From assembly GCA_951406725.2 (NCBI GenBank), contig OX597838.1, positions 37,758,001 through 37,822,000 of the forward strand: a DNA stretch of 64,000 nt, in the 5' to 3' direction. Under the pieces are notes generated by a model that was not told where the DNA came from, ran no database searches, and saw only the letters and a program-made list of their open reading frames with translations. A program made the translations under genes and the position numbers. This DNA is from Octopus vulgaris (taxonomy: Eukaryota). How positions within the stretch are numbered: position 1 is the stretch's first letter; each line of letters opens with the position of its first letter. This document shows positions 57,561 to 60,040 of the stretch, in pieces.

Positions 57561-57704
57561 GTTGAGGTAGAAGGTGAGGGTAATTTCTTGATTAAACTGT
57601 TACCTCCCAGCCATAATCTAGTTAATATATTTTGAGCTTTTGAAAATACTTTTATTTTGGGATCTTTTCTTTCCAAATGTCAAATTCTCCCCGGATACCC
57701 TGTG

Positions 57705-57705
<1 letters not shown>

Positions 57706-57760
<55 letters not shown>

Positions 57761-57783
57761 GATCTATCTATCTACCTACCTAC

Positions 57784-57858
<75 letters not shown>

Positions 57859-57884
57859 GTTAGTTAGATAGATAGATAACTAAC

Positions 57885-57923
<39 letters not shown>

Positions 57924-57930
57924 TTAGTTA
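57706..57930. repeat. (TATC)n facing (GATA)n
   Basis: Directly visible; the two tracts are mutually complementary. Confidence 0.9.
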
Positions 57931-57934
57931 AGAC

Positions 57935-58174
57935 TTGGAATTTTCTTCGAGTCGAGTAGTCAATCCCGCTCACAAGGTCCTTGAATAAGGGTTGTTTAAG
58001 GATTTTGAACGACACACCTATGTTTTCCGAGATGAATTATTCAAACCCCTAAAGAATTCCTCTCAACACATAGGTATGTTGCTCCACAACTACTTCTGCT
58101 CGTGATCAGAGATTTACATATCGTCAACCACCAAGGGACATGCTCAACTGGTTAAGGCCAAACAACTGACAAGC
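57935..58174 (-). mobile_element. Family C internal fragment
   Basis: Reverse complement matches ~63378-63620. Confidence 0.8.
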
Positions 58175-58205
58175 TAATGTATATATGTATATTATATATA
58201 TATAT

Positions 58206-58577
58206 ATAGAATGGTTGTATACTGTCAATCTAACACGAACGTGACAGTAGGGGGGTACACCACCACTGTATAGCCCTAGGAAGCATCGACGCCTCCTGAT
58301 GGCTTTGACACATTTTTCCTGTGTCCTTATATACATTTACCAGCTGACCGGTGTCTGCTAGTCTAGGCCGACGAAGGACAATCATCCTGAAACACGTGTC
58401 CCTAGATGCAGCCCGGGCGGTTTGGGCTATTTGACTCCCCTTCGTAAATGTATATAAGGACACAGGAAAAATGTGTCAAAGCCATCAGGAGGCGCCGATG
58501 CTTCCTAGGGCTATACAGCGGTGGTTTACCCCCTCCTGTCACGTTCGTGTTAGATTGACAGTATACAACCATTCTAT
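58206..58577. repeat. ~135-bp near-perfect inverted repeat with a 103-nt spacer, flanked by (TA)n
   Basis: 58206-58340 versus 58444-58577; about 4 substitutions and 1 indel by eye. Confidence 0.95.
58355..58411 (+). ncRNA. Type I hammerhead ribozyme motif, U4C core variant (F1)
   Basis: CTGC-ta-GTCTAGG-CCGACGA-AGGA(CAATCA)TCCT-GAAA-CACGTG-TC/CCTAGAT-GCAG; predicted cut after GUC at 58400. Confidence 0.8.
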
Positions 58578-58625
58578 CGCCTCACCACCGTACATATCTC
58601 TACGAGAGATTTAGAAATTTAGTAC

Positions 58626-58677
<52 letters not shown>

Positions 58678-58809: not shown

Positions 58810-59023
58810 CTTTTCTACCCTAGGCACAAAGGCCGAAATTTGGGGTGAGGGGCACCAGTCGATTAGATCGACACCAGTACGCAACTGGTACTTAATTTAT
58901 CGACCTCACAAGTATGAAAGACAAAGTCGACCTCGGCGGAATTTGAACTCAGAACATAAAGACAGACGAAATCCCGGTAAGCATTTCGCCCGGCGTGCTA
59001 ACGTATCGGCCAACGCGCCGCCT
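58810..59023 (-). mobile_element. SINE family B with probable TSD
   Basis: atagtctaa(c/t)att at 58797-58809 and 59028-59040. Confidence 0.85.
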
Positions 59024-59194
59024 TAAAATAGTCTAATATTGAGGCATATAAGCCCTCAACAGAAGGAAATGGGTATTAGTACACAGACTAATACCAGCTT
59101 TTTTTTTATCGAGGGAAAATATGTTTCAATATTAGACTATTATCTTTAGTCATTACACGGTACACGCTTTTAATTATTATTAACACACACACAA

Positions 59195-59400
59195 GGCGGC
59201 GAGCTGGCAGAAAGGTTAGCACGCCGTGCGAAATGCTTAGCAGTATTTCGTCCGTCTTTTCGTTCTGAGTTCAAATTCCCCCGCCTTTCATCCTTTCGGC
59301 GTCGATAAATTAAGCACTAGTTGCGTAATGGGATCAGTCTGATCGACTGACCCACTCCAAACAATTTCGGGCCCTGTGCCTTGAGCAAAAAAGAATATCT
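59195..59400 (+). mobile_element. SINE family B
   Basis: ggcggcgagctggcagaa..gagttcaaatt..gcctttcatcctttcgg; inverted relative to 58810-59023. Confidence 0.85.
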
Positions 59401-59428
59401 TTTTATAAAAGCTGCAAAATCTTCGCAG

Positions 59429-59473
59429 AACTGTTGTTACTCAGAGTTTCACGTTCCCGTTCGTCGGACAGTT
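59429..59473 (-). ncRNA. Type I hammerhead motif, U4C core (F6)
   Basis: AACTGT-CCGACGA-ACG(GGAA)CGT-GAAA-CTC-T-GAG-TA/ACA(aca)GTT. Confidence 0.65.
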
Positions 59474-60040
59474 GTGATGGACACCATCACAGCTTATATA
59501 TGTATATATATATATACACAAGAAAAAAGCAACAAGAATGGATTAATTTTTCAGTACAATTGTTTCATACGAAGAACAGCTTTATTACAAGCTGCAAATA
59601 TTGCAGCAAATACAAGTGTCCCGTACTCATCAGCCAAAACACATATGAGTTCTCCAAACATCCTAAGGAGTGAGGCTACACTCATGAAGTAACGAAGAGA
59701 GTTCTATAAAAAGCAAATTTAGATTATAAGCAGACTTCCAAAGTTCTCTAATGATGCACAGTTTTATAAAAGGTTTTAAAAAAGGTTTAAAAAAAAGCTT
59801 GTTAGCTTCACAGAAAAGATAAATCCATCCATAATATTGTAGGTGTAATTTCTGGAGATATGAGGAGGTATTTCATTCTCAGAGATGATGAATTTATCCA
59901 TAATTTATCCATAATAAAGTGGGTATAATTTCCTGGTATATGAGAAAATACTGATCACACTTCTGTTCATTTCACAAAACTACTATGTTAGAATTATAAT
60001 GGCTAAAAGAATTTAGTGGAGCAGAAAAACATATATATAT

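What the first reader, a model, noticed from the sequence alone, without database searches (positions are those of the whole stretch)
58206..58577. Intact hammerhead ribozyme displayed in the loop of a 135-bp near-perfect inverted repeat
Seen: a 372-bp GC-richer unit between (TA)n tracts. The arms differ at about 5 positions. The 103-nt spacer holds a complete type I fold: bulged 11-bp stem I, CCGACGA core (U4C), 4-bp stem II with a CAAUCA loop, GAAA, palindromic ACACGUGU stem III and GUC at 58398-58400. Established: PLE insertions often have a partial inverted pseudo-LTR, and PLE LTRs and retrozymes carry hammerheads. Inference: a young, compact non-autonomous retroelement; its transcript would be a long dsRNA rod with a self-cleaving apex, and so a likely ADAR/Dicer substrate.
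Basis: partly seen in the sequence, partly recalled or inferred. Interest (0 to 1): 0.75.

Follow-up and report, generated by a model that had tools for sequence, protein, structure and literature searches.

The report
Fold-back copy of a hammerhead retrozyme
The hairpin is one promoterless copy of a common 364-base repeat that carries a predicted self-cutting RNA motif; its mirror-image arms differ in length from copy to copy and likely arose as a by-product when a Penelope-type jumping-gene enzyme pasted it in, so this copy is ordinary, although the repeat family is an unusually clear case of how such elements likely spread.

Summary
The inverted repeat and the type I hammerhead motif are real, but the 372-bp arm-ribozyme-arm unit is not an element. 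The unit is a 364-nt tandem monomer (a non-LTR retrozyme; 55 exact copies of a 33-nt core, 1,888 first-look candidates). Across 45 inverted insertions, 41 have one short and one tailed end; inner junctions vary (40 different of 41; the window's geometry occurs once). With (TA)n targets and target duplications this is the known Penelope-like insertion layout. Stems covary with a sister family (7 of 13 pairs), U4C is fixed (67 of 70), and stem III is predicted to form only in a dimer. Monomers carry the motif found 57-59 nt upstream of U1/U2 genes; this copy lacks it. No A-to-G editing trace was found. A young APE-RT LINE inserts at the monomer's predicted start and at U2 +1. This scan noted the LINE targeting, the promoter and the one-tail rule before, on other DNA. 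Cleavage, expression and the partner enzyme are untested.

The parts
58180..58208 (.). (TA)n tract, left flank of the insertion (target)
   Evidence: sequence; 30 of 45 inverted insertions have a TA run at one or both ends
58206..58340 (-). Inverted arm: monomer positions 241 back to 104; begins at the family's 'short' 3' end
58339..58341 (.). Head-to-head junction; the AC at 58339-58340 fits both arms (2-nt microhomology, inferred); 58341 is about +6 of the predicted transcript
   Evidence: one contig crosses it with 30/46 letters
58341..58634 (+). Long arm: monomer positions 1-298 in ribozyme sense; lacks the promoter part (positions ~299-364)
58355..58411 (+). Type I hammerhead motif: stem I 58355-58367/58401-58411 with a UA bulge, core CCGACGA 58368-58374 (U4C), stem II 58375-58388, GAAA 58389-58392, palindromic stem III 58392-58399, predicted cut after C58400
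58444..58577 (+). Part of the long arm that is mirrored by the inverted arm; ends at the 'short' 3' end
58578..58634 (+).
58632..58674 (.). (TA)n tract, right flank of the insertion (target); hides any target duplication
   Evidence: sequence

Best explanation
The locus is one promoterless copy of a 364-nt tandem, non-coding repeat with a type I hammerhead motif (a non-LTR retrozyme), and its inverted repeat is likely an insertion by-product of Penelope-like reverse transcription rather than part of the element. SHOWN: 364-nt monomer in arrays of up to 2.3 units; two fixed 3' ends ~57 nt apart; one of each end in inverted insertions; variable inner junctions; TA-rich targets with duplications; covarying stems; a U1/U2-type upstream motif in the monomer, absent from this copy. 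INFERRED: an upstream monomer's snRNA-type promoter starts Pol II transcription at the ATC about 5 nt before monomer position 1; read-through of tandem units lets two hammerheads pair through the palindromic stem III and cut slowly (U4C), giving monomers or circles while leaving uncut RNA; an unidentified Penelope-like RT/GIY-YIG protein cuts an AT-rich site with a stagger; each strand primes cDNA on the RNA, one at the short end and one at the tail end, probably on one RNA molecule; the two cDNAs stop at variable places and are joined head to head. Here one cDNA stopped after 135 nt and the other ran 294 nt, almost to the predicted start. The copy is predicted to be silent unless a host transcript reads through it.
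For: Monomer and tandems. 41 of 45 inverted insertions are short+tail, none short+short or tail+tail; 40 of 41 junction pairs differ. Sister family: 12 of 15 distinct inverted insertions short+tail by my reading. Duplications in 12 of 15 inverted insertions outside TA runs (6-15 nt as matched, some including element letters). Two arms joining precisely at the short end in L038 and L055 (57-nt tailed arm) fit priming twice on one RNA. 82 of 126 arms run through the predicted cut site; 36 arms include the promoter motif. Stems: 7 of 13 pairs changed on both sides, 99.2% of cells paired, 11-45% when slid. Promoter motif: 20 of 20 U1, 3 of 4 U2, 9 of 10 retrozyme rows at -56 to -60, 0 of 15 U6, 0.6% of random 25-nt windows. 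Print: inverted pLTR, one-sided tail, 8-10-bp duplications (PMC3846280, PMC8557442 passages); two internal RT starts define the tail and cleavage is not needed for insertion (PMC11167929); 350-390-bp type I retrozymes in mussel (PMC7229834).
Against: No autonomous partner found: the intact 781-aa RT+GIY-YIG family has its own ribozyme and an unrelated end, and 30 GIY-YIG loci show no real DNA similarity to either family. The tail (57 nt) is longer than the 30-40 bp in print. One sister-family insertion (L160) is short+short. 26 loci came from a query shaped like the window copy, which favours inverted ones. The covariation is in effect one comparison of two families, and I chose the structure from these sequences. 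Inner ends are not significantly enriched at the predicted start (5 of 74 in 11 nt, ~2 expected). 18 of the 20 U1 loci are one cluster. No cleavage, start-site or circle data.
Confidence: 0.85

Rival explanations
1. One reading: a discrete compact element whose working form is the arm-ribozyme-arm hairpin, expressed as a dsRNA rod with a self-cleaving apex.
For: The hairpin is real and very stable; the hammerhead's stems I and II still fold inside it; a search with the whole unit returns many full-length-looking hits.
Against: Those hits have different junctions; the window geometry occurs in 1 of 41. 15 of 28 core-selected insertions have no inversion. The element extends past the right arm and into a 364-nt monomer. 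No promoter motif in the copy; no A>G excess.
Confidence: 0.03
2. The 364-nt unit is the pseudo-LTR of an autonomous Penelope-like element that I did not find, and these are its truncated ends rather than a self-standing retrozyme.
For: Same insertion layout as autonomous PLEs; only the best 40 of 1,469-1,888 candidates were scored per search.
Against: Units follow each other directly in tandem with no ORF between. In the 68 loci scanned for ORFs the only PLE-like coding fragment lay inside a broken LINE copy on the opposite strand (L063); ORFs next to units were LINE ORF1/ORF2. Canonical 4-bp stem II with a 6-nt loop is the retrozyme type, not the minimal PLE type (PMC4209133).
Confidence: 0.08
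3. The inverted arm arose by fold-back self-priming of one cDNA or by later DNA rearrangement, not by priming from both target strands.
For: Five of 45 junctions overlap by 10-44 nt; self-priming was proposed for rotifer PLEs (PMC3846280 passage).
Against: Fold-back would leave the second arm's outer end free to vary or equal to the first; instead it sits at the other fixed end in 41 of 45, and either arm can be the longer. Most junctions overlap by 0-5 nt.
Confidence: 0.1
4. The hammerheads are now dead relics: the family spreads without cleavage and the core changes (U4C here, C3U in the sister family) mark loss of function.
For: U4C in 67 of 70 and U3 in 40 of 40 rows (a few rows duplicate overlapping loci); U4C considerably lowers activity in vitro (PMC3088659 passage); 82 of 126 arms cross the cut site; cleavage is dispensable for PAc insertion.
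Against: All three stems and the stem III palindrome are kept through double changes; related families keep canonical CUGAUGA; U4C still supports viroid infectivity.
Confidence: 0.25

Closest known systems
Metazoan non-LTR retrozymes (Cervera & de la Pena 2020, PMC7229834: section 14 and passages read; Li et al. bioRxiv 10.64898/2026.07.22.740005: parts 1-2 of 5 and a term search)
   Same: Non-coding tandem monomer of 364 nt (mussel: 350-390), canonical type I hammerhead, low GC, no LTR, target duplications longer than 4 bp, solo copies and short tandems.
   Different: Circular RNA and cleavage not tested. Fixed non-canonical cores (U4C, C3U). Here the PLE link is read from insertion structure (tail, inversion); the words 'tail', 'snRNA' and 'promoter' do not occur in the Li et al. 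main text.
Insertion units of endonuclease-bearing Penelope-like elements (PMC3846280 and PMC8557442 passages; PMC11167929 parts 1-2 of 4)
   Same: Inverted truncated copy head to head, tail on one end only, two fixed 3' ends, AT-rich/(TA)n targets, ~8-12-bp duplications, uncut ribozyme in the copied RNA, carriage of foreign sequence between repeats.
   Different: No ORF; tail ~57 nt (sister family ~45) against 30-40; canonical rather than minimal hammerhead; partner protein unidentified.
Newt satellite 2 (Coats et al. 1994, seen only as cited in PMC2220036; PMC7229834 passage)
   Same: Hammerhead tandem repeat of similar size with weak stem III that needs a dimer, and an snRNA-type Pol II promoter.
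   Different: The promoter here is inferred from a motif shared with U1/U2 genes, not measured; dispersed insertions with PLE ends rather than large arrays in the loci seen.
Target-specific Tx1-clade LINEs: Tx1L in Tx1D, Tx1-Mar, Keno in U2 (PMC4494074, PMC4640811 passages) - for the LINE seen in other copies, not in the window
   Same: APE-RT-zf-RVT LINE that inserts at one site of another repeat and in U2 genes, in tandem, with ~15-18-bp duplications.
   Different: The site is U2 +1 to +14, not the Keno/Utopia site after nt 38; targets share position behind the promoter motif more than sequence; clade membership not tested by phylogeny.

Membership tests
Metazoan non-LTR retrozyme | Canonical type I hammerhead in each unit | tested here: met
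   Motif in the window and 98 family copies; covariation. Caveat: U4C core, Rfam 17.1 bits under cut-off.
Metazoan non-LTR retrozyme | Short non-coding tandem monomer of 150-450 bp, GC under 50% | tested here: met
   364-nt period, up to 827 nt in one block; no long ORF within units. GC judged by eye, not computed for the monomer.
Metazoan non-LTR retrozyme | No LTR/PBS/PPT; target duplications longer than 4 bp | tested here: met
   12 of 15 inverted insertions outside TA runs show duplications; PBS/PPT not searched specifically.
Metazoan non-LTR retrozyme | Self-cleavage; expressed as linear and circular monomer RNA | not testable with these tools
   Only contigs of runs guessed to be RNA were available; they cover the unit but show no ends, strand or level.
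Metazoan non-LTR retrozyme (active copy, Li et al.) | [quoted passage not shown] | tested here: not met
   The window copy has one hammerhead and less than one monomer; other loci (L053, L041, L056) have two in tandem. The family qualifies, this copy does not.
EN+ Penelope-like element (autonomous) | ORF with telomerase-like RT and GIY-YIG endonuclease | tested here: not met
   None in the unit or joined to it in the loci scanned.
EN+ Penelope-like insertion layout | Inverted truncated copy plus a tail on one end only | tested here: met
   41 of 45; 12 of 15 in the sister family, 1 short+short, 2 interrupted.
EN+ Penelope-like insertion layout | AT-rich or microsatellite targets with short duplications | tested here: met
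   30 of 45 at TA runs; 12 of the other 15 with duplications.
   40 distinct junction pairs of 41; window geometry once.
snRNA-type (U1/U2) promoter | Proximal element ~55-60 nt upstream of the start | tested here: met
   Shared motif at -56 to -60 in 9 of 10 retrozyme rows, 20 of 20 U1, 3 of 4 U2, 0 of 15 U6. Absent from the window copy.
snRNA-type (U1/U2) promoter | Capped Pol II transcript starting at the predicted base; SNAPc binding | not testable with these tools
   No raw RNA reads offered.
Tx1 clade (LINE in other copies) | RT phylogeny within Tx1 | not tested
   Only Pfam domains Exo_endo_phos, RVT_1, zf-RVT; 'Tx1/L1-type' is my label from recalled architecture.
Tx1 clade (LINE in other copies) | Target-specific insertion (more than 20% of flanks of one kind) | tested here: met
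   Of 30 LINE 3' ends: 20 directly on a hammerhead unit, 3 on its target duplication, 5 at U2 +1, 2 other; search seeded with a retrozyme-linked copy.

The most novel reading that the evidence does not exclude
This retrozyme superfamily is a three-layer parasite system. Monomers run on a U1/U2-type promoter. They are pasted by a Penelope-like enzyme that primes twice on one RNA, once per cut strand, which explains the one-short-one-tail rule. Their hammerheads are tuned down on purpose (different core changes fixed in sister families) so that uncut RNA survives as template. A young LINE and its ORF1-only derivative home to snRNA-type start sites (retrozymes and U2 +1) by position rather than sequence, presumably through the promoter-bound complex, and then ride along as cargo in multi-kilobase PLE-type insertions.
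Probability: 0.5. Interest if true: 0.68.

Novelty: new member of a known kind. Interest (0 to 1): 0.4.

Why it matters
The window copy matters little. The family gives insertion-structure evidence for the proposed but mechanistically unproven idea that animal retrozymes are moved by Penelope-like enzymes, and a near-strict end rule (41 of 45) that makes the open question of how PLE inversions and tails form testable in the existing PAc in vitro system. The LINE that lands at snRNA-type start sites would be a target class I did not find in print (searches; open-access library only, listings and passages, no supplements or Repbase seen). About half of core-selected copies (13 of 28) are fold-backs, so the family is a standing source of potential dsRNA if read through, but nothing here shows that.

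Tried and rejected
Rfam at gathering level: nothing in the window; the miRNA hits are long-hairpin artefacts. Rfam Hammerhead_1 across the genome gave 6 matches of other families, none of this one. Autonomous partner: GIY-YIG search found an intact 781-aa RT+GIY-YIG family and others; best DNA similarity to either retrozyme family E 0.04-0.5: not identified. The PLE-like fragment in L063 is nested in a broken LINE, no Pfam match: rejected as evidence. C1 units spaced 4 kb apart looked like pLTR-ORF-pLTR but hold LINE ORF1 cassettes. ADAR trace: none; this tests only RNAs that were copied into DNA. Clustering of inner ends at the cut site (0 of 74) or the start (5 of 74): neither significant against ~2 expected. 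A conserved tail hairpin: predicted in family 1, not in the MFE of family 2: inconclusive. Pol III (U6-type) promoter: motif absent from 15 U6 loci, many probably retrocopies. LINE and retrozyme as a long-term co-evolving unit: LINE 3' parts differ by a median 2.9%, neighbouring units by 23.6% (18 loci; Mantel rho 0.20, 139 of 2000 permutations; 8 of 26 LINE rows had no usable ribozyme flank, 4 of the 30 loci were not entered): rejected as the general case. LINE at U1: none by blastn in 20 U1 loci. Sequencing runs: contigs only; no piece spans the whole hairpin; RNA status is a guess. Nothing noted near this place by the scan. No supplementary files were read; they may list octopod retrozymes or LINE targets.

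Full report
Observation. The inverted repeat is there: arms 58206-58340 and 58444-58577, 4 substitutions and 1 indel, 103-nt spacer, folding at -275.5 kcal/mol against a shuffle mean of -104.6. Two corrections. The right (TA)n starts at 58632, and the ~57 nt before it belong to the element. And the fold is not complete as a monomer: stems I and II form (pair probability 0.80-1.0) with or without the inverted arm, stem III does not (0.00). Rfam gives only 17.1 bits, under the cut-off of 34. One contig from one of four runs crosses the inner junction, with 30 and 46 letters on its sides, which argues weakly against an assembly artefact.

The real unit. The window lies in a 2.8-Gb animal genome (G000; the repeats look cephalopod to me, from recall). 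The search gave 1,888 first-look candidates, 40 scored; a 33-nt core pattern has 55 exact matches and its reversed control 0. Reading the loci showed a 364-nt monomer in direct tandem, up to 827 nt in one block. Taking the C of CAGCTGACC as position 1, the window holds positions 1-298 in sense and 241 back to 104 inverted. Long ORFs next to units were LINE ORFs or simple-repeat artefacts.

The inverted repeat is copy-specific. From I collected 78 insertions; 45 are two arms head to head. Outer ends fall at position ~241 or ~298. In 41 of 45 there is one of each; the other 4 have a tail end and a truncated or interrupted end; none has two of a kind. Inner junctions scatter: 40 distinct pairs of 41, the window's once. 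Of 28 insertions chosen by the core pattern alone, 13 are inverted. TA runs flank 30 of 45; 12 of the other 15 show target duplications. A sister family (355-nt period, 2,429 candidates) repeats the pattern in 12 of 15 distinct inverted insertions by my reading, with one short+short exception (L160) and two interrupted. This is the layout described for endonuclease-bearing Penelope-like elements: inverted truncated copy, tail on one end, 8-10-bp duplications (PMC3846280 and PMC8557442, passages). In vitro the tail corresponds to the stretch between two internal RT starts (PMC11167929, parts 1-2 of 4). The strict pairing suggests that the two cut strands prime at different sites of one RNA; L038 and L055, whose tailed arm is exactly the 57-nt tail, fit that. 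This step is inference.

The ribozyme. Between the two families 7 of 13 pairs change on both sides, 99.2% of cells pair, and slid controls give 11-45% (24 sequences picked by me, 12 per family, so in effect one comparison). Stem III stays a palindrome (ACACGUGU, ACUAUAGU; ACUGCAGU in further families), the mark of dimer-dependent type I hammerheads (PMC4209133 part 1 of 4). U4C is a family trait (67 of 70 copies not chosen by the pattern); the sister family has U at position 3 (40 of 40 rows, a few duplicated); other families have canonical CUGAUGA. U4C is reported to lower activity in vitro yet support a viroid (PMC3088659 passage). 82 of 126 arms run through the cut site, so templates were uncut or religated.

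Promoter. The ~66 nt after the tail hold a motif (ATCAGTG-like) 56-60 nt upstream of an ATC in 9 of 10 retrozyme rows from several families, 57-59 nt upstream of 20 of 20 U1 and 3 of 4 U2 genes, in 0 of 15 U6 loci and 0.6% of random windows (18 U1 loci are one cluster). An snRNA-type promoter is on record for newt satellite 2 (citation seen in PMC2220036). 36 arms include the motif; the window copy ends before it. With no promoter and one ribozyme it is predicted to be a dead end. Its arms differ by 2.5% in the shared part, against medians of 3.3% within and 4.9% between insertions: fairly young. Family arms show 44 A>G against 40 T>C changes, at most 3 per arm: no editing trace. RNA evidence is limited to contigs of runs guessed to be RNA.

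A LINE uses the family as a target (other copies only). An ORF1-only element with a CCHC knuckle abuts family-1 units at the same site in 16 of 30 top loci (14 distinct insertions), the sister family in 2, and no hammerhead unit in 12. For an APE-RT-zf-RVT LINE, 20 of 30 3' ends are followed directly by a hammerhead unit, 3 by its target duplication and another element, 5 by U2 from base 1, 2 by other sequence (seeded with a retrozyme-linked copy). Near-identical LINE copies (0.2-0.5%) sit at U2 and at units 26-29% apart, and full-length copies have duplications that include the ATC. So insertion is repeated and recent. Keno and Utopia use a site after U2 nt 38 (PMC4640811 passages). L199 is a 7.8-kb unit of retrozyme, LINE and ORF1-only element with one tailed and one short end and a 10-bp duplication, and L200 has the same LINE-ORF1-ribozyme order, which suggests carriage as cargo, as described for PLE repeats. 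The window's long arm ends at this same site; no LINE sequence is present.

Not found. No autonomous partner: the intact 781-aa RT+GIY-YIG family has a different ribozyme and end.

Comparison and verdict. It works like, and on every testable feature belongs to, the non-LTR retrozymes (PMC7229834, section 14 and passages), with PLE-type insertion; it is not an autonomous PLE and not a fixed hairpin element. My reading was formed before I consulted the scan's notes; these report the LINE targeting and promoter in this genome and the one-tail rule in others, and are not independent support. The copy is ordinary; the family context earns moderate interest.

Noticed in passing
window 59400-59480, minus strand: A second, unrelated minimal hammerhead-like motif (core CCGACGA, 3-bp stem II, near-palindromic stem III). 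It belongs to another repeat (585 candidates, 82-91% identity, many hits paired head to head), probably the end of a different Penelope-like family.
   Followed up: partly
window 58934-59024 and 59193-59283: Another inverted pair, 91 nt, 86% complementary; looks like two opposed copies of a common SINE-like repeat (label recalled).
   Followed up: no
window 58000-58188: The insertion's left (TA)n adjoins the end of a far more abundant repeat (summed contig depth up to millions).
   Followed up: no
window 57700-57925: (TCTA)n turning into (TAGA)n: an inverted microsatellite with a palindromic centre.
   Followed up: no
L207 (G000:C16:20780177, minus): A sister-family hammerhead stops exactly after its GUC and continues in a 5'-truncated ORF1-only element: a possible trace of cleavage plus template switch, or of microhomology; single case.
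   Followed up: no
L116, L118-L128: Other subfamilies of the ORF1-only element (13,074 candidates) form head-to-tail arrays; several lie ~35-50 nt behind TATA-like motifs, hinting at start-site targeting beyond snRNA-type promoters. No Rfam hit at the seven of these loci that were scanned.
   Followed up: partly
L231-L235 (G000:C3:20.79-20.84 Mb; C23:43.31 Mb): U2 gene arrays in which several genes are split from their promoter by full-length LINEs, once two in tandem.
   Followed up: yes
L195-L198: Young, intact Neptune-like Penelope family (781-aa RT+GIY-YIG, many copies with the full frame) with a U3-A8-type minimal hammerhead near its end; clade label recalled.
   Followed up: partly
L129: A canonical type I hammerhead above the Rfam cut-off (45.5 bits), unrelated to this family.
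   Followed up: no
retrozyme monomers, just after the tail: A run of 4-5 T precedes the promoter motif in all families seen; role unknown.
   Followed up: no
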